DNA of 64,000 nt, from contig OZ193909.1 of assembly GCA_964276515.1 (NCBI GenBank), forward strand, positions 12,524,001-12,588,000, in the 5' to 3' direction. Within the stretch, counting starts at the first letter, position 1. The number at the start of each line of letters is the position of its first letter. The notes beneath the pieces are model-generated. The model searched no databases and was not told where the DNA came from. It was given only the letters and a program-made list of their open reading frames with translations. The position numbers and the translations under genes were made by a program. Positions 1,030 to 55,077 of this stretch are shown piece by piece. This stretch comes from Gordius albopunctatus. Taxonomy: Eukaryota.

Positions 1030-2538
1030 TATTCTTCTTTCTATGACTGTTTGTCACCTAAGCTGGTGGTCAGTCCTTTCAGCATTCGTTTCCATTTGTC
1101 TCTATATTTAATACATAGATCTTTCTTTATCTTGTTAACTTTCATATCGTGCCTTATTTTATGGATCCAGGTAAGCTTGGGTCTTCCTCTCCTTCGTTTT
1201 CCTGCGAAATTTATCTTTTAGATTTTATTTCCAACTAGCTATCGTCCCTTCTCTCGACATGGCCATACCATCTTAGTCTGTTTGTTAGGAGCTTTGCCGT
1301 AATTGATGTAATACCCAAAATTCTTATTTCTTCATTTCGTTTATGTTCCTTCTTACTCCTAACACCCATCTTACAATTCTCATCTCCATAGACGCAAGAC
1401 GCTGCTCTTCCCTTTTACGTATATCTCATTATTCCGAGCTATACAGGACTGTTTACTGTATGATGGATTTATACAATTCACCTTTTAGTCTTCTTGGGAT
1501 GTTTTTGTCACACAGAACGCCTGTTAAATCTTTCCATTTGAGCCATCCTGAATTAATCCCTGCTTGGATTTCTTTATCCATCTGACCATCCGATTGAAGT
1601 GTTGATCTTAAATATTTGAAGGAATCCACTCTTGTAAGTTGCCAATCGCCTAAAGTAAGGGATGCACATAGCTGATTTTCATCTAATTTAATCTTTCTCT
1701 GTAATCTGTTTTCTTTCGATTTACCCTGAGACCACTTTCTTCTATAGAATTTACATTTACCCATCTATTTACAGTATTAGCCAACTCTTGTTCACTTTTG
1801 GCACAGAGGATTATATTGTCCTCAAACATCATTGCCCAAGGAGCTTCCTCGCCCAAATCCTTGGTAATAATATCCATTATCATTATGAATAGGAACTAAG
1901 ACCTGAACCTTGATGGACTACAGTGTTAATGGTAAAGCCCTTTGTAGTCCCCTCCGTTGTTCTAACGTAGGTTCTATTTCCCTTGTACATATCTTTTATT
2001 GCTATGACGTATAATTCTGGCACATTGTTTTCTTTCGACATTTCCACACTAAAGTACGAGTAACTTTATCAAACGCTTTTTCTATTAGATCGATGAAACA
2101 CATGTGCAAATCCTTCTCCCTTTCTCTAAATCGTTCCAATAACCTTCTAACACCATTTAGGGCGTCTGCTGTAGACCTCTCCGGCATAAATCCGAATTGG
2201 TTATCTTGAATTTGAACTAAACTCCGAAGCCCTTTTTCGATCACTTTTTCCCACACCTTGAAAGTGTGACCCATATGCTTTATCCCTCTGTAATTGTTAC
2301 AATCCTGAATTTCTCCTTTTATATTATATATATCGGTATCATGTAACTTTCCCTCCACTCGTTACGCATTTTACCCATTTTCAAGATATTGTTGGTGCAC
2401 CAGTATTGTCTAGTCTGGTCCAAGAGCTTTTTCTGCTTTTAGTTTACCCATGGGAACTTTGATCTCCGTTCCCGTGATCCAGTTCCAGTCCGCTGTCTTT
2501 AATTCTCCTATTGTATTTTCCTGATTAATGTCTTCGAC
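1030..2538 (-). pseudogene. Degenerate RTE-clade LINE reverse transcriptase region and 3' end (family B)
   Basis: Broken ORFs with KALGPD, DCNNYRGIK, QFGFMPERST, FIDL(I)EKAFDKV, APWAMMFEDNIILC (decayed YADD), FKYL; GAA-type tail near 1030-1042; several frameshifts. Confidence 0.9.
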
Positions 2539-3824
2539 GTACTCTTGATAATCCTCCGACTTTTTTGATTTATGCCACCGTCTATATAGATTTTTCTTTA
2601 TTTCGATGAAATCTTTAACCGCTTGATCCCACCACCATAGTTCCCTATTCATAGCTTTGCCTCCTTTGGTCTGTCCTAGAACACGAATCGCTGTAATGTC
2701 CTTAGATAGCGTCTCCCAATCTTCGTCTACGTCCCTTTGCAACTTCCTTGCACCCAAGAGTGAGGAGGCTTTTTGATGGTATTCTTCGTTCGTCGACGTA
2801 TTCTTTAGCCTTTCGTATCGAATTCGAGGTTCATATACCTTTCTTCTTTCGGGAAATACTCTTCTGTCAAGATCCATAACAAGGGGACGATGTTGCCTGG
2901 CGATTTCTTTTCCCGGTATTACTTTGCAATCCTTGATACTCCATAAGTCCTTTCGCCGTATAAGCAAATAGTCGATTTGACTAAAATGCTTGCCACTTCT
3001 ATAGGTCACAATATGATCTTCGCGCTTTTGAAAATAGGTGTTAACGATCGCCATGTTATATGCTTAGGATACTTGGAGAAGTTTTTCCCCTTCTTTGTTC
3101 TTCAGACCATGCCCATAGCCTTCATGATTGCGTTCATACCCGAGGCGATCTTTCCCAATGTGAGCGTTGAAATCTGCCCCAATAATTAGCCTTTCTTCCT
3201 GTCCTATTCCTTGTATTTCCTTTTCCAATGAATCGAAGAATATGTCTTTCTCTGATTACAAACATCCAATTTGGGGGGCATACGCGCACATAACGGTTAG
3301 GAGGCCCCCTTGATCTGCAATCTTCACCCACATTAGTCTGTCGGAACAACGCTTTACTTCCACCACCTTGTCCTTGAACGATTCACTTAGAACGATACCG
3401 ACCCCGTTTCTACGATTTGATGACCCACTGTAGAAAAGCTTGTATCCTTCTCCTAATTCCCGAGCTTTCGTTCCGTTCCACCTCGTCTCTTGTGTACCTT
3501 TCTTCTTTTTAGCATCTGTGCGACTTCGATGCTCTTCCCCGTCAACGTTCCCACATTCCAGCACGTAATTCGCATTCTTTCCACAACTAGTTTCCTTAAC
3601 CGCCTTCGTTGTGAGTTGGGTAGTAACCCTAGTGTATTTTTCACATTGCACGGGCGGGGTATGCAGTGCGCGTCGTTTGTGGATGACGCCCTAGTCTTTT
3701 CTTGTAAAATCCTGTTAGAAACTATCATAGTTTTGGAGTTAATTTTTATAGCCGGTTTCCGACCTGAAGCCAACCCTCCACTTTTTGCACATGGACTTGG
3801 GACCGTCGTAGGTAGGGTTTTGCA
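2539..3824 (-). mobile_element. 5' half (UTR + AP endonuclease) of RTE LINE family A, frameshifted
   Basis: WNVGTL, QETRW, GVGIVL, AYAPQ, GADFN, SQIDYLL motifs; near-identical to 12925-14130; homology stops abruptly at 2539. Confidence 0.92.
3769..3824 (-). ncRNA. Degenerate twister ribozyme-like motif in the RTE 5' UTR
   Basis: Minus strand AA-CCCT-ACC-TAC-GACG-GTCCCAAG-TCCATGTGC-AAAA-AGTG-GAGGG-TTGGC aligns with the rice twister as I recall it (UAA-CACU-GCC-AAU-GCCG-GUCCCAAGC-CCGG-AUAAA-AGUG-GAGGG). Confidence 0.7.
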
Positions 3825-5289: not shown

Positions 5290-5424
5290 TTGGAATGTAT
5301 GGAGAATGGAATATCAAAATCCTATGTTGAGATTTATAATGGCCTTAGTGACAACGCAGCGAGCGAAATCGCTGCTGTTGACCTGATGATAAGGTACATT
5401 AAAAATAGAAATAACGAAATATAC
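5290..5424 (+). pseudogene. hAT transposase remnant, left part (interrupted by the LTR element)
   Basis: SDNAAS motif; joins in frame to 12006 when the LTR element and one TSD are removed (...NEIY-HHRCACHIMNLVVK). Confidence 0.75.
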
Positions 5425-6132
5425 TTTTACATCCTTCACCCAAAGGGGAATATGTATTTGTTCTTTGCTGGGAGATTATTTATTTGTACGAGATTATTCA
5501 CCAAATCTATGATACTCTAATGCTAATTTATTCACTCCAAAAATGATAATACAACTCCGGAAACGGGATATAATTGAAGTATTCTGCAATAAGTGTTAAC
5601 ACCACAATAATAGCGCGGGAATATAATTTCTAGCGATTACAGGGGGGGGGGGGGGGAATTGGGTTTACAATGGAGAAATTTTCATTCTACGGGATGAAAT
5701 CCTATTTCTCTGTTTTTCTCTGTACTATCGATTTTGCTGGGACTTATATAGGTTTCTTTTCTTGGCCTGTGCCTTTATCCTTGAAACTTCTTTTCTTTTT
5801 GACCCATTTTACCGCGCCAATTTCGTGATGAATGGCCCTTCACTTCCAAGGCTTTTCCACGTCCTTTGGAATACTCAGCTGACAGTTCTAGGTTTTCCCT
5901 ACCTTTCTTATGCCAATTCAATATTTATTACCAGGTTATGTCGTACCCTTGCTTTTCCTTCTGCTACTTCTTTCAGGCCAAGTCTTAATTTATAGCTGTA
6001 TCCTTGTACTATTTAACTACCAACCCAAATTTCGGTAACCTTCCCTTTCCCTTCGTTTATTTTTCATCTTATCACGTGCTCATGCCTTATAAGGGCTGGT
6101 TCCCTTTTTAATATTTTCTCATGGATATGACA
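5425..6132 (-). repeat. 3' LTR (708 bp)
   Basis: Direct repeat of 11293-12000; starts TGTCA on the minus strand right after the PPT. Confidence 0.97.
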
Positions 6133-6327
6133 CCTCCCTTTTCTTCGGGGATCACGTCTCGGGGGGGGCCTTCTGGTTGAGTGTTCACGGTGGTTGGATA
6201 GGTGGGTGGAACAGGTGGTTGGGTCAAGTGGTTGGGATCTTCCAATTTCGGTCGTTCGTTTTCTGGTCCTTGTTTCAGGTTTCCTGTTGATATTTTGTTC
6301 CTTTCGATGGTCATCGTAGTACGTCAC
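6064..6327 (-). CDS. Putative spliced accessory ORF4 (Arg/Pro-rich, 87 aa) running into the 3' LTR
   Basis: Open frame begins right after the acceptor-like TTTTATAATAG; no in-frame ATG; no recognised homology. Confidence 0.35.
   Translation of the reverse strand: MTYYDDHRKEQNINRKPETRTRKRTTEIGRSQPLDPTTCSTHLSNHREHSTRRPPPRRDPRRKGRCHIHEKILKREPALIRHEHVIR
6133..6146 (-). other. Polypurine tract
   Basis: GAAGAAAAGGGAGG immediately before the 3' LTR. Confidence 0.9.
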
Positions 6328-6575
6328 CTATTATAAAATATAAATGCTGCCCGATCCCTAATACAGGATCAGTAGCCATATTCACCTCTACATCAACACC
6401 CTCCTACGTTATCACAACTTTTATTTCCAATCAACACACCAAATTTTCATATTGATATATGGGGAATAATTCTATAAATGACACAGCACACAGGGGATAA
6501 TTTATATCAATAACAGGTCAATCGGGTACATAAATTATATACATCATAGGGCCATTGTCCCTCAAGAGTGGCTTT

Positions 6576-6923
6576 TCACTCCTTCCCTTCTTCCAGTTTG
6601 AAACTCTTTAACCTTTCTCCAATTTCTTCCCAAACGTTTGTTGGGGGTCTAGCGTTCGTCTGGGTTTCTACATCCGTCTGGGTCCCTACACTTTTAAAGT
6701 TGTCTTTCTTCTTCGCCTTCTCCACCTTTTCCCTCGTCCATTTCTTCTTAATCCCTCTCGTGGTACACTTTCTTCCCCTGCTCCTCCAGGGACACGTCTG
6801 CCAGCGATGAGTTCCTCGTTCATCACATATATAACAAATTATTCCTTCTACCTGCACTTCCGACCCATAGTAACACTGCCACGTTCTATGGCTGTCATAC
6901 TGCCAGCACACCTTACATTGGAG
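6576..6923 (-). CDS. Post-integrase ORF3 with two CX2CX5HX4C zinc knuckles and a basic region; probably a spliced exon
   Basis: CKVCWQYDSHRTWQC and CYICDERGTHRWQTC; preceded by TATTTTATTACAG; no ATG. Confidence 0.7.
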   Translation of the reverse strand, partial: LQCKVCWQYDSHRTWQCYYGSEVQVEGIICYICDERGTHRWQTCPWRSRGRKCTTRGIKKKWTREKVEKAKKKDNFKSVGTQTDVETQTNARPPTNVWEEIGERLKSFKLEEGKE

Positions 6924-6950
6924 CTGTAATAAAATAGATTTCCTTAGTCC

Positions 6951-8177
6951 CTACTGGTCTCGTCGCCGTAACTGGTCAATATGCCTCCAAAATTCCTTAC
7001 CGTCTTCTATCGTCACTCGACACCTTACCCCTCCTTCTACGGCGATCACTAACCCCTTTACCCACTTACTCGGACCTTGATACATTTTAACCCAAATCGT
7101 ATCCCCTAATTTAAAGCGGGCTGCCCTCCCTAAATAACTCCCTCCCTCTACCCTTCTCAACTCGTCTAGCCATACCCTCCCTCGTCGTCCCAAGAATCTC
7201 GATGACGGGGACTGGCCATCTCCTCCCTTCGCGTTATTATACATTAACTTCATCTGCCACTGCTCGGATGTCCCCCTTTTCTCCTTAAGAATCCACCCTT
7301 TAACTACTCCCACCATTCTTTCCACCTGCCCGTTGGAACTGGGATGATAGGGTGGGGTGATAATATGTTCTATCCCTTGACTTCCACAAAATTCTTTAAA
7401 CTTTACGCTACTAAATGCTGGACCTCCGTCGGACACTATCAGTTTTGGTAATCCATATCGCGCCAATAGTCCTTTCAATATCCTTATTACAATCCGGGTC
7501 GAACTTCCATTAACCTTTTCGTACTCTACCCATTTAGTACCGGCGTCCACCGCTATAAAATATACCTGCCCTAGACACTCGAAAAAATCTAGATGCACCC
7601 TATCCCACGGATTTTGTGCCCTGGCCCATTGGCTACCTTTAATTTTGGGTGGCATCGCGGCTATGCTATTGCATGCCTCACATTGCCTGCAGAGATATTC
7701 GCTATCCTTTCTGATACCGGGCCACCAGATATATTCTCGCGCCCATCTCTTCATCTTTACCATACCCTGATGTCCTTTATGTAACTCATTTAACACCTCC
7801 TTCCTTAACACATCGGGGATGATTATCTGTAGACCTTTCATAATACATCCATCCACTATGCTTAATTGCCTTTTGATTTTTTGGTACTTTCTCAGGGCGA
7901 GGGGCCACTCGGCTTCTCCTCGAATACACTGGCCTAATTTCTTTAGTTCGACATCCCTCTCCGTTGCTTCCTTGACATCCATCCAGGAGATTGGTCCTCC
8001 GTCCGATATTCTTAAAATGTATGGTGCATCATTGTTATTATAGTTTTCTTCTATTGCTCCGCTGCTTCCTTCTTTATCGTCTTCCTGTTTTTGAGGGCCC
8101 ATTCGTGATAAAGTATCTGCGATATAATTATCCTGGCCTCTTCTATATTTTATTTCCACTTCAAATGCTCCTACCAT
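6951..8177 (-). CDS. RNase H C-terminal remnant + integrase of the LTR element
   Basis: IKYRRGQDNYIADTLSR; H-H-C-C finger (LHKGHQG...CEAC); DDE core (RVHLDF, VSDGG, GQVERMV). Confidence 0.95.
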   Translation of the reverse strand: MVGAFEVEIKYRRGQDNYIADTLSRMGPQKQEDDKEGSSGAIEENYNNNDAPYILRISDGGPISWMDVKEATERDVELKKLGQCIRGEAEWPLALRKYQKIKRQLSIVDGCIMKGLQIIIPDVLRKEVLNELHKGHQGMVKMKRWAREYIWWPGIRKDSEYLCRQCEACNSIAAMPPKIKGSQWARAQNPWDRVHLDFFECLGQVYFIAVDAGTKWVEYEKVNGSSTRIVIRILKGLLARYGLPKLIVSDGGPAFSSVKFKEFCGSQGIEHIITPPYHPSSNGQVERMVGVVKGWILKEKRGTSEQWQMKLMYNNAKGGDGQSPSSRFLGRRGRVWLDELRRVEGGSYLGRAARFKLGDTIWVKMYQGPSKWVKGLVIAVEGGVRCRVTIEDGKEFWRHIDQLRRRDQ

Positions 8178-8190
8178 TACGAGCCATCTC

Positions 8191-10287
8191 TTAGTAATTT
8201 ATCAATCCCAAAAAGGATTGCAGTTCTTTTTTGGAAGCTGGTGCACGAAGGTTACTTACTGCCGCGATCTTACTCTCTATGGGCCTAATGGTACCATTTT
8301 CGATAATATGCCCCAAATATTCGACTGTATTTACATCAAAAATACACTTTTCTTTGGACACTCTTAATCCATTGTCATCAATAATTTGTAAAACTTGTCG
8401 TAATTTATAATCATGTTCCGCTTGTGTTTTTCCTGCCACTAATAGATCATCTATATAATAGAAGACACCTTCTATTCCTCGAAATAATGAATTCATGGCC
8501 ATCTGAAAGATTGGAGCCGAAATACTTAATCCAAAAGGTAATCTCAAAAACTTAAATAGACCTAAATGTGTGTTTATTGCTAGGGCTTGACTCATCTCTT
8601 TTGATACCTTCAATTGTAGGTAAGCCGTTACAAAATCTAATTTTGAGAAGTGTTTACATCCATTCAACTCCACCAAAATCTCCTCTAAACGCGGCAATGG
8701 AAATTTTAGACTCTCAATACAAGGATTTAGAGTGATACGAAAGTCTGCACACAATCTCAACTTACCATTAGCCTTCCTTACCGGTACTAGGGGCGTTGCC
8801 CAATAACTAAAGGATACCGGTTTGGTTATTCCTTCTTTAACCCACTTGTTTAACTCCTCCTCTATTTCACCGCGCCATTCATAAGGTACTCTTCGAGCTG
8901 AACAAAATTTCGGGGTTACTCCCGGTTTTAATTTCATCGTGGCCTCATAATTTTTCAAACATCCCAACTCTTTATTGAAAATTCTTGAAAACTCTGCACG
9001 AATCTCCTCAAATTTCGCGCCTGTACTCTCTTGCAACCTTAACTCCATGTTTATTAAATCACTACCCGAGGTCGGCTCAGTTCTTATTTTATTCAACCAG
9101 TCCACCTCAAAGTTTTGAATCCAGTCCCATCCTAAAATATTATTAACCCTTAGGTCCGATATATATAATATTAGATTTTTAACAACTCTATTTACGGTTA
9201 TACGCACGTCGCACTGTCCTATTAATTTTATATTGTCATTATTAAATAGCCTAACTTCCAATTTTGACTCTTTAAATAATCCACCGTTACAAATTCTAAA
9301 CCAATCATCTCTATTCACTACAGTTATGGATGAACCGGTGTCAAATATAAAATTAAGTTGAATTTTGTTACAGAATATTTTTACGCGGGGAACTGGGTTA
9401 TTTTTAATTTCCAGCATATTTATGGTAGGAATTTGCATTACTTCCTTTTTTATCGATTTTTGTTTGATAAAATTCCCTACAAGATCATGATTACGCGGCA
9501 ATGTTACGTTAAACACTTCCCAATTTCTTTTAATGGGTATTAAAGTTAATTTACATTGAGGATAGATAACAGGGGTGGTTTTTGTTGTTGTAAACTCGTT
9601 CAATTTTCCATAGTCATACCAATACTCGTAAGTTAAAAATAAAAATCTTCGACACATATACTTGTAAAAATTACTCGTGTTGACCTTATCAATTTGCTCG
9701 CTACCCTTCCAAGGATTTAAATAAAGGTTCATTTTACTTTTGTTATATTTATTTATTTCCGTTATATTATTTCTTCCCTTCCCTATTTTATTTTGATACT
9801 GGGTTTTGCTTTTTGGTACTTTAAAAACGGTAGATTGCATAAATGATTCCAGATTTAAACGGTCGTAAGTATATTCGCCCAAAACACAAAAATTGGTATT
9901 TCCTAACCAATAAAATTTATTCCAGATTTCAAATCGCCAACACGCCCGTGAGTACGATTTAATTATATACGTTGGTGGAGTATTAGGAATTTCGAATGGC
10001 TTAACCACGATTTCTCGGATCTCCTTTCCAATCGACCTATTCCCAAGATTTTTTATCTTTCGACAAACCATCTCTTTATACTCACCCAAAATATATGAAA
10101 AATACCCTTTTTGAGTATCTTTATAAAATATACAATTATTTTGTATATTAGAAGTGTTTTCAGAAGAATAATATTTGTCCCGTTTAAGTGTGTTATGCCT
10201 CCCATGTATTTTCAAAGTACCAAACTGCACTATATTTATCATAATTTTAATAAAAAGTTGCAAACCCCAAAATAATTTGTTCAACAT
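8191..10287 (-). CDS. Unknown N-terminal domain + aspartic protease + reverse transcriptase
   Basis: FIFDTGSS protease motif; WATPLVPV, LRLCADFR, SKLDF, RLPFGLS, YYIDDLLV; ends at SFLGLINY-stop where RNase H should follow. Confidence 0.95.
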   Translation of the reverse strand: MLNKLFWGLQLFIKIMINIVQFGTLKIHGRHNTLKRDKYYSSENTSNIQNNCIFYKDTQKGYFSYILGEYKEMVCRKIKNLGNRSIGKEIREIVVKPFEIPNTPPTYIIKSYSRACWRFEIWNKFYWLGNTNFCVLGEYTYDRLNLESFMQSTVFKVPKSKTQYQNKIGKGRNNITEINKYNKSKMNLYLNPWKGSEQIDKVNTSNFYKYMCRRFLFLTYEYWYDYGKLNEFTTTKTTPVIYPQCKLTLIPIKRNWEVFNVTLPRNHDLVGNFIKQKSIKKEVMQIPTINMLEIKNNPVPRVKIFCNKIQLNFIFDTGSSITVVNRDDWFRICNGGLFKESKLEVRLFNNDNIKLIGQCDVRITVNRVVKNLILYISDLRVNNILGWDWIQNFEVDWLNKIRTEPTSGSDLINMELRLQESTGAKFEEIRAEFSRIFNKELGCLKNYEATMKLKPGVTPKFCSARRVPYEWRGEIEEELNKWVKEGITKPVSFSYWATPLVPVRKANGKLRLCADFRITLNPCIESLKFPLPRLEEILVELNGCKHFSKLDFVTAYLQLKVSKEMSQALAINTHLGLFKFLRLPFGLSISAPIFQMAMNSLFRGIEGVFYYIDDLLVAGKTQAEHDYKLRQVLQIIDDNGLRVSKEKCIFDVNTVEYLGHIIENGTIRPIESKIAAVSNLRAPASKKELQSFLGLINY

Positions 10288-10649
10288 GTTAAAATTTCTA
10301 TTAATCCTTTATTAATTTTTTACTATGACCCTTTTACTTTAAATTCTTCATGCTAATGATACCTTTTATTATTATTTTTTTTTTGATCAAAATCAAAGTT
10401 CAACACTAGTAGTCAAAAAATTTTATTTATACATATCAATATTAATATATTTTATGCAAATTGAACCATAAACATATTATGCACTAAAATCAATAAAATT
10501 TATTATAAAAATTGATATTTTATATTATATAACGAATTCGACATAGCAAGCGCGGGGGGGGGGGGTTACGAACATTATGGGGAAGGTGCTAACATTATTT
10601 TTTATATTATTAGTAATTGCACATTATTATTAAAATAAAATATAAGTTC

Positions 10650-10985
10650 TTAGGGCTTATATTTGGGAAATAACATTTTATTTTTGCAAAATTCAGCATA
10701 ATGCCCAATATCTCCACAATTTACACATCGGGGAGTGACATAATTATTTTTACTTTGGTTTGGGGTATGTAATGATGGATTATTTAATTGCTTATTATTA
10801 AAATAACAATTACGCTGTAAATGATTTGTGTTTCCGCACGTGAAGCACCTCACTCTCTTGGTTAATTTATTAACTAACTGTCCAATTAAAATGCCCAATA
10901 TCAAAATAACAAAGTAATCAATATATTCATATAAATCAGCAAACAAATTTCTTAAATAAAATCGATTATCGTTTTTACCAAACAT
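10650..10985 (-). CDS. ORF1: small protein with a predicted TM helix and two CCHC zinc knuckles (nucleocapsid-like)
   Basis: Hydrophobic YFVILILGILIGQLV; CFTCGNTNHLQRNC and CVNCGDIGHYAEFC (CX2CX4HX4C). Confidence 0.85.
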   Translation of the reverse strand: MFGKNDNRFYLRNLFADLYEYIDYFVILILGILIGQLVNKLTKRVRCFTCGNTNHLQRNCYFNNKQLNNPSLHTPNQSKNNYVTPRCVNCGDIGHYAEFCKNKMLFPKYKP

Positions 10986-11163
10986 GCTAAAATATATTTT
11001 TTAAAATTAATAATTAATGAAATTAATAAAATCACGAAAAATATTATATAATAAATTAACATACCTTTTTATAACGCTGGTTTCCGTGTGTGTCCATTAC
11101 GAATTTCGTCTGTTTTGATCGCGTCTGATTGCGGTTGAGTCTTACGGCTGTGTTTTGTCCTTT

Positions 11164-11284
11164 GGATTGCGGCGGTTTTGATTGTGTTGAATCTTAAGGT
11201 CGACTTTTGTACGAGTATAACCGGGATTGCGGCGGTTTTGCTTGTGTATAATCTTAAGGTCGTCTTTTGTACGAGTATAACCGG
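11164..11284. repeat. Two tandem 60-bp repeats in the LTR element leader
   Basis: GGATTGCGGCGGTTTTG...GTACGAGTATAACCG repeated at a 60-bp period. Confidence 0.95.
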
Positions 11285-11291
11285 GGCACCA
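11282..11291 (-). other. Primer binding site
   Basis: TGGTGCCCCG starting 1 nt after the 5' LTR; complementary to a tRNA ending CGGGGCACCA. Confidence 0.85.
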
Positions 11292-11292
11292 C

Positions 11293-12000
11293 TTTTACAT
11301 CCTTCACCCAAAGGGGAATATGTATTTGTTCTTTGCTGGGAGATTATTTATTTGTACGAGATTATTCACCAAATCTATGATACTCTAATGCTAATTTATT
11401 CACTCCAAAAATGATAATACAACTCCGGAAACGGGATATAATTGAAGTATTCTGCAATAAGTGTTAACACCACAATAATAGCGCGGGAATATAATTTCTA
11501 GCGATTACAGGGGGGGGGGGGGGGAATTGGGTTTACAATGGAGAAATTTTCATTCTACGGGATGAAATCCTATTTCTCTGTTTTTCTCTGTACTATCGAT
11601 TTTGCTGGGACTTATATAGGTTTCTTTTCTTGGCCTGTGCCTTTATCCTTGAAACTTCTTTTCTTTTTGACCCATTTTACCGCGCCAATTTCGTGATGAA
11701 TGGCCCTTCACTTCCAAGGCTTTTCCACGTCCTTTGGAATACTCAGCTGACAGTTCTAGGTTTTCCCTACCTTTCTTATGCCAATTCAATATTTATTACC
11801 AGGTTATGTCGTACCCTTGCTTTTCCTTCTGCTACTTCTTTCAGGCCAAGTCTTAATTTATAGCTGTATCCTTGTACTATTTAACTACCAACCCAAATTT
11901 CGGTAACCTTCCCTTTCCCTTCGTTTATTTTTCATCTTATCACGTGCTCATGCCTTATAAGGGCTGGTTCCCTTTTTAATATTTTCTCATGGATATGACA
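11293..12000 (-). repeat. 5' LTR (708 bp)
   Basis: Direct repeat of 5425-6132, followed by the PBS. Confidence 0.97.
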
Positions 12001-12005
12001 TATAC

Positions 12006-12925: not shown

Positions 12926-14071
12926 ATGATAGTTTCAAACGAGATTTTACAAGAAAAGGCTAGGGCGTCCTCCACAAACGACGCGCACTGCATACCCCGC
13001 CCGTGCAATGTGAAAAATACACTAGGGTTACTGCCCAACTCACAACGAAGGCGGTTAAGGAAACTAGTTGTGGAAAGAATGCGAATTACGTGCTGGAATG
13101 TGGGAACGTTGACGGGGAAGAGCATCGAGGTCGCACAGATGTTAAAAAGAAGAAAGGTACACATCGCCTGCCTACAAGAGACGAGGTGGAACAGAACGAA
13201 AGCTCGGGAATTAGGAGAAGGATACAAGCTTTTCTACAGTGGGTCACCAAATCGTAGAAACGGGGTTGGTATCGTTCTAAGTGAATCGTTCAAGGACAAG
13301 GTGGTGGAAGTCAAACGTTGTTCCGACAGGCTAATGTGGGTGAAGATTGCAGATCAAGGGGGCCTCCTAACCGTTATGTGCGCGTATGCTCCCCAAATTG
13401 GGTGTTCGGAATCAGAGAAAGACATATTCTTCGAATCATTGGAAAAGGAAATACAAGGAATCCGACAGGAAGAAAGGCTAATTATTGGGGCCGATTTCAA
13501 CGCTCACGTAGGGAAAGATCGCCTCGGGTATGAACGCAATCATGGAGGCTATGGGCATGGTCTGAAGAACAAAGAAGGGGAAAAACTTCTCCAAGTATCC
13601 CAAGCAGATGACATGGCGATCGTTAACACCTATTTTCAAAAGCGCGAAGATCATATTGTGACCTATAGAAGTGGGAAGCATTTTAGTCAAATCGACTATT
13701 TGCTTATACGGCGAAAGGACTTATGGAGTATCAAAGATTGCAAAGTAATACCGGGAGAAGAAATCGCCAGGCAACATCGTCCCCTTGTTATGGATCTTGA
13801 CAGAAGAGTATTTCCCGAAAGAAGAAAGGTATATGAACCTCGAATTCGATACGAAAGGCTAAAGAATACGTCGACGAACGAAGAATACCATCAAAAAGCC
13901 TCCTCACTCTTGGGTGCAAGGAAGTTGCAAAGGGACGTAGACGAAGATTGGGAAACGCTATCTAAGGACATTAAGGAAACAGCGATTCGTGTTCTAGGAC
14001 AGACCAAAGGAGGCAAAGCTATGAATAGCTATGGTGGTGGGATCAATCGGTTAAAGATTGCATCGAAATAA
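12926..14071 (+). CDS. RTE apurinic-like endonuclease domain (frameshifts near 14028)
   Basis: WNVGTL, CLQETRW, GVGIVL, AYAPQ, GADFNAHVG, QIDYLL, QHRPL. Confidence 0.93.
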   Translation: MIVSNEILQEKARASSTNDAHCIPRPCNVKNTLGLLPNSQRRRLRKLVVERMRITCWNVGTLTGKSIEVAQMLKRRKVHIACLQETRWNRTKARELGEGYKLFYSGSPNRRNGVGIVLSESFKDKVVEVKRCSDRLMWVKIADQGGLLTVMCAYAPQIGCSESEKDIFFESLEKEIQGIRQEERLIIGADFNAHVGKDRLGYERNHGGYGHGLKNKEGEKLLQVSQADDMAIVNTYFQKREDHIVTYRSGKHFSQIDYLLIRRKDLWSIKDCKVIPGEEIARQHRPLVMDLDRRVFPERRKVYEPRIRYERLKNTSTNEEYHQKASSLLGARKLQRDVDEDWETLSKDIKETAIRVLGQTKGGKAMNSYGGGINRLKIASK

Positions 14072-14193
14072 AGAAAAATCTATATAGACGGTGGCATAAA
14101 TCAAAAAAGTCGGAGGATTATCAAGAGTACAGGGACGCAAAGAGGGCCGCAAAAAAGGCCGTTGCAAAAGCGAAGAATGCTGCGTACACCGAG

Positions 14194-15903
14194 ATGGCAA
14201 ACAAACTGGATCATAAAGGGGGCGATAGGCTTATGTACAAATTGGCCAAGATAAGGGAGAAGAAAAGTCGAGATGTCGGGGTTCTTAAAATAGTCAAAAG
14301 CGAGAAGGGTCAAACCTTATTCAAGCCGAAGGAAGTGATGGAAAGGTGGAAAGGATATTTTAAGAAACTTATGAATATTGCAAATGACAAGGATTCCCTT
14401 CCCGAAATTGAGCCAAATATAAGTATGGTCGAACTCTTTCAGAAGGATGAAGTTAGGACACAAATGAACAAGATGCAAAAAGGAAAAGCGAATGGCCCAG
14501 ATGGAATACCTATGGAAGCATTGCTCGGATGTCGTGAAGAAGGAGTCACCACCATGACGAACCTCCTTAACAAGATATTGGTAGAAGAGCGAATCCCTAA
14601 TCAATGGAGAGCAAGCACGATTATACCTTTATTCAAAGGGAAAGGAGACCCTCAGGACTGCGGCAATTACAGAGGTATCAAGCTAACTTGCCACTCCTTG
14701 AAGCTTTTGGAAAGGATCTTAGTAACAAGGCTGAAAAACGAGGTGGAAATATCGGCTAATCAATTCGGATTCGTGGCCGGCAAATCCACAATCGACCCAA
14801 TCTTTGCCCTAAGACAAATGATGGATAAGTATGGTGAAAAGAGGAAAGACCTACATATGGTTTTTATCGACTTGGAGAAAGCTTATGACACGGTCCCCCG
14901 CGATTTAATTTGGTGGTGCCTGAGGAAACAAAATATCCCTGACGCATATATACGGCTTATGAAAAATATCTATGAAGCCTCAAACTCTTGCGTTAGGACG
15001 ACAGTTGGAGACTCTAAACTTTTTCGGGTTAATATTGGATTACATCAAGGCTCTGCTTTAAGTCCCTTTTTATTTAATATAATTATAGACACGATAACGA
15101 GGGACTTTCTAAAGCCATCGCCATGGTGTATGCTATATGCCGATGATATAGTACTATGCGAGGAAACAAGGGAGAAGGTATTCGAAAAAGCAGAAAAGTG
15201 GTCAAAGCGCTTAGCTGGATATGGTTTAAAGGTCAACGATCGAAAAACGGTATACATGGAAATGAACGGTACAAGCACCCCATCGCTGGATGACCACCTA
15301 AAGTACCCAAAAGTAGACAGGTTTAATTACCTCGGCTCTATGCTACATCAAGAGGGAGGTTGCGCAACTGAAATCAATGCCCGGATTCAAAAAGGATGGC
15401 TTAAATGGCGAAGTATATCCGGTGTAATGTGCGACAAGAAAATGCCAATATGGTTAAAGAGCAAAGCTTACAAATCCATCGTAAGACCGGTGTTACTCTA
15501 TGGAAGTGAAACATGGGCATTAAACACCACGGAAGGAAAGCTATTACAAGCCACGGAGATGAGAATGATACGGTGGAGCTTGGGGTATACTAAGCTCGAC
15601 CATATGACGAATGACTTTCTCATGACAAAAATGGGTATTCAACCTATGGCGGACATGATTAACGAAAATCGGCTAAGGTGGTATGGGCATATACTAAGAA
15701 GGGACCCGGATGACGTAAATCGAAAAGTGCTAGACATGAAAATACCGGGGAAGAGAGGAAGAGGACGACCCCGTGTCACGTGGAAAAGGCAAGTCGATAA
15801 AGTTATGGAAACTAAAGAGATTCGTCAAGACATGGCACTAACCCGGTCAAGATGGAAGAGACTCATCAAAACAAACCCCACCAATGTGGGACCAAATAAC
15901 TGA
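14194..15903 (+). CDS. RTE reverse transcriptase domain
   Basis: GKANGPD, NYRGIKL, QFGF, FIDLEKAYD, GLHQGSALSP, LYADD, FNYLGS, RLRWYGHILRR, RGRGRP. Confidence 0.96.
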   Translation: MANKLDHKGGDRLMYKLAKIREKKSRDVGVLKIVKSEKGQTLFKPKEVMERWKGYFKKLMNIANDKDSLPEIEPNISMVELFQKDEVRTQMNKMQKGKANGPDGIPMEALLGCREEGVTTMTNLLNKILVEERIPNQWRASTIIPLFKGKGDPQDCGNYRGIKLTCHSLKLLERILVTRLKNEVEISANQFGFVAGKSTIDPIFALRQMMDKYGEKRKDLHMVFIDLEKAYDTVPRDLIWWCLRKQNIPDAYIRLMKNIYEASNSCVRTTVGDSKLFRVNIGLHQGSALSPFLFNIIIDTITRDFLKPSPWCMLYADDIVLCEETREKVFEKAEKWSKRLAGYGLKVNDRKTVYMEMNGTSTPSLDDHLKYPKVDRFNYLGSMLHQEGGCATEINARIQKGWLKWRSISGVMCDKKMPIWLKSKAYKSIVRPVLLYGSETWALNTTEGKLLQATEMRMIRWSLGYTKLDHMTNDFLMTKMGIQPMADMINENRLRWYGHILRRDPDDVNRKVLDMKIPGKRGRGRPRVTWKRQVDKVMETKEIRQDMALTRSRWKRLIKTNPTNVGPNN

Positions 15904-42127: not shown

Positions 42128-43903
42128 TAGGGATGGCACAATGGGAATTTTCGCGGGGAAAATTCCCCTGAAAAATATATTTTTTTAATTAAATATGTAT
42201 GATATAATTTAAGTTATATATTATTTTAATTTACTTTAATCTCAAATTTACCTCGTGGGAACCAATATTTTAAATATTTCCTAATTTATAATTTGTGAAA
42301 ATTTTCTTAAATACTATTAACATCTAGTTGTTAACTTAAAAGATTTTGCAATCTACACTAAATTTAATTATCTCAATAATCAGGTAAAACAATATACCCT
42401 TATAGTTACATTAACAATTAGTTCTCTAGTGTAAAATTCTTTCCATATAAGGTAAATTTACACATGCTTGTAAATTTAATTCAATGTTTAGCAAAATCAT
42501 TTAAATTTTATATTGCCATTTTACTCTAAATCTTAAAATATTATATACCAACTTAATAGTAAGTATAAGTAATATTTAAAAAATATATCAACTTGTTATT
42601 TAACATTAGAGAATTTGGAATCTACACTGAAATTAATTATTACAATAATCCTAGATAAGCTTTTAAGTTATATTAACAGGTAAATTTACATATGTTTGAA
42701 TATTTAAAATATTTAGCAAAATCTATTATATTTTTATTGCCATTAACTGTTAAAATATTTTTACCAACTTCAAATCAAGTAATCTTAAATAGATATTTAT
42801 TTTATGCTAGTATTTAATTTTTTGATATAGAAGTATTTGTTATATCTAACTAAATTAAGATTTCTACATTTTATTTAAACTGAATTTACACACAATTCTA
42901 GTAAAAATAACCTGTAATCCTTTGAAAACAATAAATGTAAAAATTTAATATTATTAAACTTATTTTTTTGACTAATAGTTAGTTTTTTTTACTAATAGAT
43001 GCCAAGAAAAACATCTGACATTTGGAAACATTTATCTTCAAATAAGAAAGGTTGTATTGCTGTTTGCAATTATTGCAATTTAAAATATACATTTCCAAAC
43101 TCAACCAAAATGACAAATCATATAGCTAAGTGCCCAGATTTTATAAAGGAAAAGAATTGTTAAGAAGTTTTCTTAATGCCCCCCTCTCCCCAATCATCAA
43201 TTTGTGAGGTAATGCTTGAAAAATGCCCTATACAACAAACATCTGCTTCATGTGACCCAAAACCATCAACATCCAATATTATTAGTTACTTTGATAGCAT
43301 GACCCAAACTCAGCAAGAGAAATTAGATGAAAAATTAGCATTGGCTATTTACATGTCTAACTGTCCCTTCAATATTATCGAGAATCCATTTTGGAAGGAA
43401 TTTTTCAAACTTATAAAACCTTCATACAAACCCCCTTCCAGAAAGGCCATAGGTGGTCCATTGCTAGATAAACAATTTGACAAGATAACGATGATTATAA
43501 ATGAAAAAATTAACTCTGCCTCAAATTTTACATTAGTCAGTGATGGGTGGACGAACATAAGAGGAGAATCAATCATTAACTTCAATTTTTTTAAGTCTAT
43601 TGATACAGGATCAAATGCTCACACTGGAGAATACATATCTGAGGAATTTCTAAAAGTGACGCAAGAAATTGGATCACAAAAGTTTATAGCAATTGTGACT
43701 GACAATGCAAAAAATATGATTTATGATTTTCTTGTATTTGCTTCTTTATATTGTCTGACTAATAAATTTTATTAATCTTAATCATACTCATGAACATTTT
43801 TTTATATTAATTTACCTGTCTTGCTCGTTATTTCCCCTTAATTTCTTGTTTTTTCCCGTCAATTTTCCCTTAATCGAATTTCCCGGGAAAATATCCATCC
43901 CTA
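42128..43903 (+). mobile_element. Internally deleted hAT transposon
   Basis: TIR TAGGGATGG/CCATCCCTA; perfect 8-bp TSD GAAGGAAC; GGGAAAA subterminal repeats. Confidence 0.95.
42999..43775 (+). pseudogene. Truncated hAT transposase (BED zinc finger + start of catalytic core)
   Basis: IWKH...CNYC...NHIAKC; YKPPSRK; LVSDGWTN; IVTDNAKNM; disrupted near 43160; C-terminal half absent. Confidence 0.9.
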
Positions 43904-45422: not shown

Positions 45423-47303
45423 TTAAGAACAGCATTGCGTACAGGGGCAAGAGTGCGGCGATTTGGCGTTGGTGGCTGGGGGAGGAGGAGGAGGGGGCGA
45501 TGTGTAAACGGGCACGTATACATATTGAAGGTAATGATGCGGCGGCGAAGAGAGCAAATGGTGTTGTTGGTATGAGCAATAAATGGGCTGGTGGGCAAAT
45601 GGATGAGGTGGGTGGTGATAACGCGGGCCAGAGCTTAGGTAGAGGGGACACGGCGAGGGACAAGCAACTATCTGGTTGAGCGAGGTGGTGTTTGGACTAG
45701 GGAGGTCGGTAGTGGTGGTAGTGGTAATGGTTTTGCTGGCTTCTTGTTCGATAGATTTAGCCGAGGAGGAAGAACAGCAGGGAGTTTGATGGTAGTGGTT
45801 GATAGTTGATGAAATGATATTTACGAAAGTGGTAAGGAGCGGATGAAATTTTGGGTAAGCAGAGGTGGCGGTGGTCGATGGGGGGAAGGGATAATGGTAA
45901 CGCACGTTGAAAAACATATTTTCGATGAGCCTCAAAATTTCCCTGCGTTCGTGGCCCATGAGGCAAACTGTACTACTATCCACCACGCGATAAAGCGTGA
46001 CGAGATAGCTGTACAGGGTGCGATGATCTTGGGTGAAATGGTTACGGAGGTAGGAATCCAATTTATTTTCCTGCTTCCTCAAGTCCCCAAAATCGATGAA
46101 AAAACGGGAACACATATACTTTTCCAACGACTTTACGTCCGTGCTCGGGGCCGGAGTGTAGCCTTGCACCAGAAGATTACAGTACTTAAGCAGGCCGCCA
46201 CCCCGAATTTCTTCGGGACGGACCGTGGCGATAAGCTTATTTTTCAAATGTTCCAAGGCTTCCCAAAAATTACCGTAAACGCTCTCGCACACGATTTCGA
46301 TAGGTTGGGTGGTGGGACTACTTCTAAATATGTCATCTTCACATTCGTCCGTATACTGTTGGTCGTCGTCGTCGAAAAAGTTATTTTGTAAGGCATCCAA
46401 CAATGGATCGAGAATGATTTGAAAAGAATCCACGCTAAATTCGAATTGCCTCTTCATGCTAGCCACGAATTTGAGTTCCAAATTACGGCCCCGATCGTTG
46501 TTCAGCGCGAGTAGGCTCCACAAATCGCCGCCCGCGCACACCTTGACCATCTTGTGGATGTAGGCTTCGCGCAAGAATTCTTGATTAACTTGTTCGGCCT
46601 GGTGGTGGTACCCCAAACCCGATGCCAAATCTAAGCTGCTACCCTTCCCGCTACTCGAACTACTCCTATGGCCATTACTACTAGAATTGCAATTACTAGA
46701 GCTAGAAGTGGTACTGCTATCGCTGATAACGCTTTCGGTATCGAGTTCTTTAGTGGTAGGCTCGGTCGTCCCAGCGCCACGAGTATTAGAAGAAGCGTTA
46801 AAACGCTTGAGAAATATGAGTAAGATCGTCTCCATCACTATGTGCTTGATGCGTTCCATATCCTTGCTCGAACCCAGTTTCACGAAGTAAATCAAGTCGA
46901 GATCGTTATAATCGGCCCGGTGCAGTAGGACGTGGTTAGCGGCGCCCCCATTGATCCTCACATCCCGGACCACTATGTTGTGATTGATCAATTCGTCCCG
47001 TATCCGACTCACTACATCCTTTAGCCTCACGTTCAGGGTAGGCAACGTATGCGCCAAGGTCGGGTGCGGGTTGACGTAGACGTTAGAATGTAGAAGGTGG
47101 TGGAGTCGTTTGAATTGAGGCTCGTCCAATTTAGTGGCCTGAATTGTATTGCTACTGCTTTTGAGGAGTCCTACAAGCGGTTCCGATGCTGGATAGTAGG
47201 TAGGCGAAGGTGGGGTAGTCCCTTTAATGTCACCAGGGCTAGGGCAAAGCGCAGCTACGGGGCTGGGGGGACGAGGAGTCATTAGGAGCGTATCGTTTGC
47301 CAT
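45423..47303 (-). CDS. TENT5: Terminal nucleotidyltransferase 5 (FAM46 family non-canonical poly(A) polymerase), single coding exon, 626 aa
   Basis: VRINGGAANHVL, YNDLDLIYF, EAYIHKMVKV, WSLLAL, GRNLELKFV, RQFEFSVDSFQI, PEEIRGGGLLKYC, YMCSRFFIDF, STVCLMGHERR; first ATG at 47303; splice acceptor TTTAG at 47359. Confidence 0.96.
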   Translation of the reverse strand: MANDTLLMTPRPPSPVAALCPSPGDIKGTTPPSPTYYPASEPLVGLLKSSSNTIQATKLDEPQFKRLHHLLHSNVYVNPHPTLAHTLPTLNVRLKDVVSRIRDELINHNIVVRDVRINGGAANHVLLHRADYNDLDLIYFVKLGSSKDMERIKHIVMETILLIFLKRFNASSNTRGAGTTEPTTKELDTESVISDSSTTSSSSNCNSSSNGHRSSSSSGKGSSLDLASGLGYHHQAEQVNQEFLREAYIHKMVKVCAGGDLWSLLALNNDRGRNLELKFVASMKRQFEFSVDSFQIILDPLLDALQNNFFDDDDQQYTDECEDDIFRSSPTTQPIEIVCESVYGNFWEALEHLKNKLIATVRPEEIRGGGLLKYCNLLVQGYTPAPSTDVKSLEKYMCSRFFIDFGDLRKQENKLDSYLRNHFTQDHRTLYSYLVTLYRVVDSSTVCLMGHERREILRLIENMFFNVRYHYPFPPSTTATSAYPKFHPLLTTFVNIISSTINHYHQTPCCSSSSAKSIEQEASKTITTTTTTDLPSPNTTSLNQIVACPSPCPLYLSSGPRYHHPPHPFAHQPIYCSYQQHHLLSSPPHHYLQYVYVPVYTSPPPPPPPATNAKSPHSCPCTQCCS

Positions 47304-52239: not shown

Positions 52240-53200
52240 CATTGATAATATGACTTTTTGACCGTCCGCAGGCTACTGACCATTGAAAAAAAATTACCAT
52301 TGGCCAAATAAATCGAAATTTTTTGTTCGTTTTTGAATAGGTTAACATTGATAATTACCCTATATTTTTTAATAATTGCTATGCAATTTATCTAGTTTTT
52401 GGGTTAGAATCCCGGAGTTTTTTTTGACTCTAATGATTGTTCTTGTTACTATCATTGATAATAAGACTTTTTGGCCGTCCGCTGGCTGCTGACCAATGAA
52501 AAAAATGACCATTGGCCAAGATGTGTATCCGAGTTTATTTTTTCGTTTTTTTGACTATTATGATTGTTGCTGTTCCTACCATTGCTATTATGACTTTTTG
52601 GCCGTCCGCTGGCTCCTGACCGATGGAAAAAATGACCATTGGCCAAAATGTGAATCGAAAATTTTTTTTTCGTTTTTTTTGACTTTTATGAATTTATATC
52701 CACTTTTACCGTGTCCTGGCTGCTGACCAATGGAAAAAAATGACCATTGGCCAAAATGTGAATCGAAATTATTTTTTCCGTTTTTTTTGACTATTATGAT
52801 TGTTCCTGTTCCTACCATTGCTATTATGACTTTTTGGCCGTCCGCTGGCTGCTGACCAATGGAATAAAATAACCATTGGCCAAAATGTGATTCGAAAACT
52901 TTTTTTCGTTTTTTTTGACTATTATGAATTTATATCCACTTTTACCGTGTCCTGGCTGCTGACCAATGGAAAAAAAATGACCTTTGGCCAAAATGTGATT
53001 CGAAAATTTTTTTTTCGTTTTTTTTTACTCTTATGAATTTATATCCACTTTTACCGTGTGCTGGCTGCTGACCAATGGGAAAAAATGACCATTGGCCAAA
53101 GTGAGCATCAAAATATTTTTTCCGTTTTTTTGGCTATCATTGACTTATAGAGTATCTGTTGGTACTGACCAATGCAGAAGAAATGACCATTGGCCAAATT
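52240..53200. repeat. Tandem array of about 8 units of ~107/~128 bp
   Basis: Recurrent CTGACCAATGG-A(n)-TGACCATTGGCCAA core. Confidence 0.92.
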
Positions 53201-54216: not shown

Positions 54217-55077
54217 TAGTGATGATCAAAACCTAGGTTTTGATCAGGCAACCTGAGGGTTCAGGTTCGGGTGTTCAAAAACCTTTTACCAGGTTTTTGA
54301 ACACCTGAACCTTAACCTGAGGTTGATCCCGAAAATCAACCTGAAAAACCTTCAGGTCAATTTTATCCCCAACCTGAAACCCAGGTTGACCTCAGGTTAA
54401 CCTGATAAAAATCACTTGTTTTATGCGATAAATTTAAGAATAAATTTATATTTTACTTTAACTATTTTCCTTTTTCAAGATGCGTCAAACTTTTTAAATA
54501 TTTACAATTTTAAATGAAGAAAAAATAGTTTTTGGTTATTATTATAAAAAAAAATAAGATTTTTTTATATAAAAATTTAATTAATTGTTAAACATGTATA
54601 TTACTCGATAACGCCATCTATATGTTTATAAATTTTGATAAACATATCCCCACACTTTATTTATCAAAATTTATAAACATATAGATGGCGTTATCGAGTA
54701 ATATACATGTTTAACAATTAATTAAATTTTTATATAAAAAAATCTTATTTTTTTTTATAATAATAACCAAAAACTATTTTTTCTTCATTTAAAATTGTAA
54801 ATATTTAAAAAGTTTGACGCATCTTGAAAAAGGAAAATAGTTAAAGTAAAATATAAATTTATTCTTAAATTTATCGCATAAAACAAGAGATTTTCATCAG
54901 GTTAACCTGAGGTCAACCTGGGTTTCAGGTTGGGGATAAAATTGACCTGAAGGTTTTTCAGGTTGATTTTCTGGATCAACCTCAGGTTAAGGTTCAGGTG
55001 TTCATCGAACACCCGAACCTAAAACCGACCTGAGGTTGGACCTCGGGAAAACCTGACCTAGGTTTTGATCATCACTA
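54217..55077. mobile_element. Foldback hAT-type MITE (near-perfect palindrome)
   Basis: TIR TAGTGATGATCAAAACCTAGG; perfect 8-bp TSD GTGTAGAT; ~345-bp inner arms around a 17-nt loop (54643-54659). Confidence 0.95.

What the first reader, a model, noticed from the sequence alone, without database searches (positions are those of the whole stretch)
10650..10985. Stand-alone 111-aa nucleocapsid-like protein with a predicted membrane anchor in the gag position
Seen: a hydrophobic helix (YFVILILGILIGQLV) followed by basic residues and two canonical CCHC knuckles; it has its own ATG and stop and lies ~360 bp from pol. An acceptor-like TTTTAG|C sits just before the ATG, giving a 78-nt intron from the 11064 donor. 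Inference: it could tether element RNA to membranes or vesicles instead of forming a capsid.
Basis: partly seen in the sequence, partly recalled or inferred. Interest (0 to 1): 0.72.

Follow-up and report, generated by a model that had tools for sequence, protein, structure and literature searches.

The report
Membrane-anchored nucleocapsid in capsid-lacking retrotransposon
A recently inserted jumping gene carries a small stand-alone protein with two zinc knuckles of the RNA-binding type behind a predicted membrane-spanning helix and has no recognisable capsid gene, so it likely holds its RNA at a membrane, but this is untested and the element may instead borrow a capsid from a relative.

Summary
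A minus-strand 111-aa ORF (10985-10650) has its own ATG and stop, a 15-residue uncharged helix with a GxxxG motif, a basic patch and two canonical CCHC knuckles. It lies in a young Ty3/gypsy element (5424-12000; identical 709-bp LTRs, TATA target duplication, empty site seen) whose RT groups with a horsehair-worm RT among K02A2.6-like elements. Other copies keep the ORF in the same form, so it is not the tail of a longer gag in the main form. No capsid domain is detectable anywhere, and no protein with helix plus knuckles turned up among 81 hits. Caveats: pol has a gag-sized, unrecognisable 300-aa N-terminus that could be a diverged capsid. A sister sequence shares the first nine codons and then diverges, and could be a full gag. 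This copy lacks RNase H. The helix is short, AT-rich DNA yields such runs fairly often, and the variants show no purifying signal (n=5). The 11064 donor fits better with an ATG-less zinc-finger ORF after integrase. Best reading: a split-off, likely membrane-anchored nucleocapsid protein. 'Instead of a capsid' is unproven.

The parts
11292..12000 (-). 5' LTR, 709 bp, TG...AG, TATA box at about 11618
   Evidence: 100% identical to the 3' LTR
11282..11291 (-). Primer binding site directly after the LTR (TGG-start; match to elongator tRNA-Met is recalled, not tested)
11164..11283 (-). Two 60-bp tandem repeats in the leader
   Evidence: 93% identical
11065..11097 (-). 11-codon leader exon with ATG, ending on the strongest donor of the element
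10987..11064 (-). Predicted 78-nt intron, about 10% GC; also conserved in a sister sequence
   Evidence: loose-end pattern (inference)
10650..10985 (-). 111-aa ORF: amphipathic acidic N-part (10-23), predicted membrane helix (24-38, GxxxG), basic patch (40-46), CCHC knuckles (47-60, 87-100)
10288..10649 (-). 362-nt AT-rich non-coding spacer
8191..10287 (-). 698-aa ORF: about 300-aa N-terminal region without any match, then protease and RT; breaks off in the RT thumb
8190..8191 (-). Break in this copy: RNase H absent; other copies continue with different sequence on both sides
   Evidence: (loose ends in X2)
6951..8177 (-). Integrase ORF (end of RNase H, zinc-binding domain, core)
6576..6923 (-). 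ATG-less 115-codon ORF behind a good acceptor, in frame with the leader exon: two CX2CX5HX4C motifs, basic run, two TQT motifs
   Evidence: no family match
6133..6146 (-). Polypurine tract
5424..6132 (-). 3' LTR; TATA target-site duplication at 5420-5423 and 12001-12004
   Evidence: empty-site joint skipping 6581 nt in X1 and X2

Best explanation
The 111-aa ORF is a stand-alone gene of a young gypsy-type retrotransposon that encodes two CCHC knuckles behind a predicted single membrane helix, and it likely supplies the element's nucleocapsid function from a membrane, binding element RNA on the cytosolic side. Steps: (shown) separate ORF, canonical knuckles, no other CCHC in pol's N-terminus, no detectable capsid domain, same form in other copies. 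(Predicted) a short N-out, C-in anchor that self-associates through GxxxG. (Inferred) the knuckles capture genomic RNA and primer tRNA and gather them at a membrane, as matrix plus nucleocapsid do in retroviral Gag. The shell, if there is one, would come from the unrecognisable 300-aa N-terminus of pol or from a sister family. Alternative splicing from the 11064 donor would give a message for this ORF and one for the zinc-finger ORF after integrase.
For: It holds the only canonical CCHC pair of the element; none lies in pol residues 1-300, whereas 11 of 11 related proteins examined carry knuckles in their gag part. A profile of 12 related gags hits only the knuckles in all six frames, while leave-one-out controls find the capsid part in 12 of 12 (E 9e-5 to 5e-65). 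The helix is the most hydrophobic among 122 comparable frames in the window; 5 related gags reach only KD17 0.37-0.92. Charges are -3 before and +4 after the helix. The single-sequence model gives a confident helix over residues 11-40 (pLDDT 86-96). In X1 an ungapped contig spans 10712-11001 at depth 676, similar to RT contigs (684-889), with no joint between donor and ATG. The one variant in the helix is F to L. No good donor lies behind the knuckles that could fuse the ORF to pol (best 4.5 versus 8.0).
Against: The uncharged core is only 15 residues and includes a Gln. 739 of 5000 AT-rich random peptides match its hydrophobicity, and an intron-encoded 36-aa frame exceeds it. The five listed variants are 4 replacement and 1 silent, as expected under neutrality (62 of 311 sites silent), and one X2 contig has a 1-nt deletion at 10901 (depth 493 of 5475). 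No homologue with helix plus knuckles was found, so there is no conservation argument. Several ATGs lie upstream, so how the ORF is translated is unclear. X1 and X2 are one study and may be the source of the window.
Confidence: 0.45

Rival explanations
1. Remnant of a gag in a dependent family: a deletion joined the gag start to the knuckle region, the hydrophobic run is a by-product of AT-rich DNA or a soluble assembly helix, and the element is packaged by a complete sister family's capsid.
For: In both X1 and X2 a contig (X1 depth about 204, close to the 197 of the empty site) shares the ORF through codon 9 and then runs on unlike for 255 nt or more. A second family, 85-90% alike in pol, is present. 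This copy lacks RNase H yet has identical LTRs. Variants look neutral. The best PDB hit aligns the helix end weakly with the stretch before the knuckles of a Gag protein (8c9m, E 0.004).
Against: No reciprocal loose end at about 10958 is listed (20 rows not shown). Residues 10-46 have no similarity to related gags, and the knuckles are 40 residues apart versus 19-20 in 9 of 9 two-knuckle relatives. The 290 codons at the start of pol stay open (0 of 2000 shuffles), which a decaying family would not be expected to keep.
Confidence: 0.33
2. An sORF2/FAST-like accessory protein: pol's 300-aa N-terminus is a diverged capsid, and the 111-aa ORF is an upstream small membrane protein that helps the element pass between cells, with knuckles gripping the RNA or particle.
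For: It has the same position and orientation as MDG1 sORF2, a similar size (111 versus 63-107 aa), an amphipathic N-part, a helix and a basic patch. Pol's extension is gag-sized.
Against: There is no MGxxxS/T myristoylation motif and no Tyr after the helix, and the N-part is 23 residues against about 30. Knuckles were not mentioned for sORF2 in the sections read. The RT groups with K02A2.6-like proteins. The extension has 1 Ala in 300 residues and no capsid signal.
Confidence: 0.14
3. First exon of a spliced gag-pol, as in plant Ogre elements, with the 362-nt spacer removed as an intron.
For: The spacer is AT-rich, and Ogre is a precedent for a spliced spacer between ORFs (PMC6317226, passage).
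Against: The only GT behind the second knuckle is weak (4.0 of 8.5), and acceptors near the pol start are poor.
Confidence: 0.06

Closest known systems
K02A2.6-like (Mag-type) Ty3/gypsy elements; nearest RT from Gordionus sp. (P0003)
   Same: Domain order PR-RT-(RH)-IN; RT 56-57% identical to the Gordionus protein, grouped with it at SH-aLRT 99 inside the K02A2.6-like set; tandem repeats in the leader as in three Culex Mag elements.
   Different: Relatives have capsid and closely spaced knuckles fused in front of the protease; here the knuckles sit in a separate helix-bearing ORF and no capsid is detected. LTR 709 bp and TSD 4 bp, versus 119-304 bp and 5 bp in 20 of 21 Culex Mag rows.
[quoted passage not shown]
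   Same: Small single-pass ORF upstream of the polyprotein, amphipathic N-part, polybasic patch after the helix.
   Different: No myristoylation motif, no post-helix Tyr, carries two CCHC knuckles, different clade; MDG1 elements keep a normal gag.
Retroviral Gag (matrix plus nucleocapsid; recalled, weak PDB hits)
   Same: One polypeptide links a membrane-binding part with CCHC knuckles.
   Different: An integral helix is predicted instead of a peripheral matrix domain, and there is no capsid between the two.
Spliced env-position ORFs of gypsy-like elements (Tor3a, PMC4402516)
   Same: A 5' donor serves an ORF after integrase.
   Different: The 3' ORF here is a zinc-finger/TQT protein with no hydrophobic anchor evident, not an envelope.

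Membership tests
Ty3/gypsy LTR retrotransposon | LTRs, PBS, PPT, TSD | tested here: met
Ty3/gypsy LTR retrotransposon | PR-RT-RH-IN order | tested here: met
   RNase H is missing in this copy, other copies run on at the break
Ty3/gypsy LTR retrotransposon | Gag with capsid domain | tested here: not met
   a capsid diverged beyond detection is not excluded
Mag-type (K02A2.6-like) clade | RT phylogeny | tested here: inconclusive
   quick tree of 66 of 70 hits plus the window; group support 90; no named Mag reference in the tree, and equating K02A2.6-like with Mag is recalled
Mag-type (K02A2.6-like) clade | Knuckles 19-20 aa apart in gag next to the protease | tested here: not met
   40 aa apart, in a separate ORF
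Mag-type (K02A2.6-like) clade | Short LTRs, 5-bp TSD, Leu/Ser/Arg PBS (Culex set) | tested here: not met
   the PBS tRNA was not identified by a tool
Retroviral-type nucleocapsid protein | Two CX2CX4HX4C motifs with basic flanks | tested here: met
Retroviral-type nucleocapsid protein | Binds and chaperones element RNA | not testable with these tools
   needs experiment
sORF2/FAST-like | Single membrane helix followed by a polybasic patch | tested here: met
   by hydropathy only
sORF2/FAST-like | N-myristoylation motif MGxxxS/T (present in 4 of 6 MDG1 proteins) | tested here: not met
sORF2/FAST-like | Ectodomain about 30 aa, Tyr after the helix | tested here: not met
   23 aa, Asn after the helix
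sORF2/FAST-like | Cell-cell fusion or transfer activity | not testable with these tools
   needs experiment

The most novel reading that the evidence does not exclude
A lineage of gypsy-type retrotransposons that has given up the Gag capsid altogether and packages its RNA and reverse-transcription machinery on or in membranes through a single-pass, self-associating nucleocapsid protein, with a spliced zinc-finger/TQT accessory protein in the env position.
Probability: 0.12. Interest if true: 0.88.

Novelty: new variant of a known kind. Interest (0 to 1): 0.52.

Why it matters
LTR retrotransposons are held to need a Gag capsid for reverse transcription (established knowledge). An actively inserting family with no detectable capsid and its knuckles moved onto a predicted membrane anchor would show either a capsid-free route or a capsid diverged beyond recognition plus a new accessory protein. 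A 111-aa protein makes the membrane and RNA questions easy to test. If it is only a remnant, it is an ordinary dependent element.

Tried and rejected
No whole genome is held. The homologue search at near length found nothing for the ORF, and nothing longer was found for pol residues 1-400 (weak). The Atlas gave only knuckle look-alikes, best 0.80; it could not be queried for pol's N-terminus. Viral contigs: none. Metagenome scan: 2 weak loci at E 2e-4, not used. No RNA holder was listed, which is no evidence on expression. The fold of pol residues 1-396 was unusable (pLDDT 33), so no fold search was run; the model of the ORF is one helix plus low-confidence knuckles, also not searched. Pfam, PHROGs and PDB gave nothing significant for pol's N-terminus or the 3' ORF; Rfam gave none. 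Exact look-up: 0 of 5 window proteins. Earlier findings: none. An N-terminal extension of the ORF by the 78-nt splice was rejected: that frame has a stop and no ATG upstream. Fusion to pol by splicing is unlikely. Paper searches listed no report of a helix-plus-CCHC stand-alone ORF in an LTR element, judged from listings of an open-access library only.

Full report
Observation. The ORF is real and lies on the minus strand, 10985-10650, 111 aa with its own ATG and TAA. Residues 24-38 form an uncharged hydrophobic run (KD15 2.59, KD17 2.34) with GxxxG, followed by four basic residues and two CX2CX4HX4C knuckles at 47 and 87 (Pfam zf-CCHC E 1e-6). An ORF this long arose in 0 of 2000 shuffles of the leader.

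The element. The ORF sits in an LTR retrotransposon at 5424-12000 with identical 709-bp LTRs, a TATA target duplication, a PBS and a PPT. Runs X1 and X2 hold the empty site, a joint that skips 6581 nt, so the insertion is young. Downstream come a 698-aa ORF (about 300 unmatched residues, protease, RT) and an integrase ORF. This copy breaks off in the RT thumb and resumes at the end of RNase H, a stretch of about 150 residues in two relatives. X2 contigs continue with other sequence on both sides of the break, so other copies probably keep it. The best RT hit is a Gordionus (horsehair worm) protein at 56%. In a quick tree of 66 of 70 hits plus the window (4 short matches dropped) the two group at SH-aLRT 99 among K02A2.6-like proteins (group support 90). 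That these are the Mag clade is recalled, and the host group is an inference from this one hit.

Is it the tail of a longer gag? Not in the main form. An X1 contig spans 10712-11001 without gaps at depth 676, similar to RT-covering contigs (684-889) and over three times the empty-site contig (197); overlapping contigs cover 10565-11114, and no joint is listed. Depth is no copy number, and X1 and X2 are one study that may be the window's source; X3, from another study, has one low-depth contig over 10784-10912 with one difference. Five variants are listed in the ORF: four replacements and one silent, no stop, and the one in the helix is F to L. That ratio equals the neutral expectation of 0.20. 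One X2 contig has a 1-nt deletion (depth 493 of 5475). A contig in each of X1 and X2 shares the ORF only through codon 9 and then runs on unlike for at least 255 nt (X1 depth about 204). Only 30 of those letters were shown and both calls were used, so whether this is a full gag or a diverged small ORF is open. It is the main gap in this report.

Is there a capsid? A profile from 12 related gags hits only the two knuckles in six frames of the internal region, while leave-one-out controls detect the capsid part in 12 of 12. Pfam, PDB and PHROGs give nothing significant for pol residues 1-296. Yet that region is open over 290 codons (0 of 2000 shuffles) and is gag-sized: the protease aspartate is at 316 versus 240-434 in 9 relatives. 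It has no knuckle, 1 Ala in 300 residues, and 7 of 9 listed variants are replacements, against 3 of 7 in PR-RT (from the truncated table). Its model was unusable. A capsid diverged beyond detection cannot be excluded; Gag is known to diverge fast (PMC2582038, passages). If so, the 111-aa ORF is an upstream small ORF and not in the gag position.

Is the helix a membrane anchor? For: it is the only one of 122 ATG-started frames of 45 aa or more in the window to reach KD17 2.34; 10 of 5000 residue shuffles reach it; charges are -3 before and +4 after; an amphipathic stretch precedes it; the model is confidently helical there; five related gags reach at most 0.92. Against: the core is 15 residues with a Gln; 739 of 5000 random peptides of the same base composition reach it; a second frame over it scores 2.2 and a 36-aa frame from an ATG inside the intron 3.12. 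I put a true anchor at about 60-65%. Among 81 phmmer hits in 1.84 billion representatives, 80 match only from residue 35 on and the one from residue 25 is not hydrophobic; 1 of 81 has a hydrophobic run before a knuckle, in a nine-knuckle protein. No homologue of the whole design was found.

Splicing. The 11064 donor ends an 11-codon leader exon. Joined to the acceptor at 10986 it runs out of frame and stops after three codons, so the 78-nt intron adds nothing to the protein; it could still make a message in which the ORF's ATG is favoured (inference). The same donor is in frame with an acceptor at 6923 that opens 115 codons with no ATG of their own, two CX2CX5HX4C motifs and two TQT motifs (TQT as a dynein light-chain motif is recalled). 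This env-position ORF needs the donor and is likely its main partner. No good donor exists to fuse the 111-aa ORF to pol. No RNA was available to test any of this.

Mechanism. Most likely (0.45) the family has split its nucleocapsid function into a small N-out, C-in membrane protein whose cytosolic knuckles gather element RNA at a membrane, with any shell coming from pol's N-terminus or a sister family. Rivals are a gag remnant in a dependent family (0.33), an sORF2/FAST-like transfer protein (0.14) and a spliced first exon (0.06). The sequence anatomy is shown; topology, RNA binding and assembly are inferred.

Literature seen. bioRxiv 10.1101/2025.03.14.642691: abstract and sections 7, 8, 10. 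PMC3286476, PMC4402516, PMC7264820, PMC2582038, PMC6317226: passages. Others: search listings only. Searches listed no description of this design; the library lacks most subscription papers, and the bioRxiv supplements listing sORF2-like proteins were not seen.

Verdict. A real, unusual ORF in an unusual young element: a new variant of a known kind, interest 0.52. The capsid-free reading is not excluded (0.12).

Noticed in passing
window 6576-6923 (-): ATG-less ORF in the env position with two CX2CX5HX4C motifs, a basic run and two TQT motifs, in frame with the leader exon; no family match.
   Followed up: partly
window 9388-10287 (-): About 300 open codons in front of the protease with no match in any library tried; possibly a diverged capsid or a new domain.
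   Followed up: partly
window 10959 and 11080 (loose ends): A sister sequence appears to keep donor, intron, acceptor and the first nine codons while diverging on both sides.
   Followed up: partly
window 10952-11062 (-): An ATG inside the donor opens a very hydrophobic 36-aa frame (KD17 3.12), probably a by-product of T-rich intron sequence.
   Followed up: partly
window 6064-6327 and 6108-6323 (-): Two open frames (87 and 71 aa) running into the 3' LTR, no Pfam match.
   Followed up: partly
window 6949-7808, 8455-9703: Contigs 85-90% alike show a second, related family in the same runs.
   Followed up: no
window 12926-15903 (+) and 2410-3729 (-): LINE-type endonuclease and RT ORFs, with a 97% inverted copy on the other side of the LTR element.
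   Followed up: no
window 45423-47303 (-): Single-frame 626-aa host gene with NTP_transf_7 (TENT5/FAM46-type, label recalled), E 2e-112.
   Followed up: no
window 54298-55004: Near-perfect hairpin: 345-nt arms, 99% complementary, 17-nt loop.
   Followed up: no
window 43176-43775 (+); 52419-53132: DUF659 ORF (transposase-like fragment, recalled) and an array of about 110-130-nt repeats.
   Followed up: no
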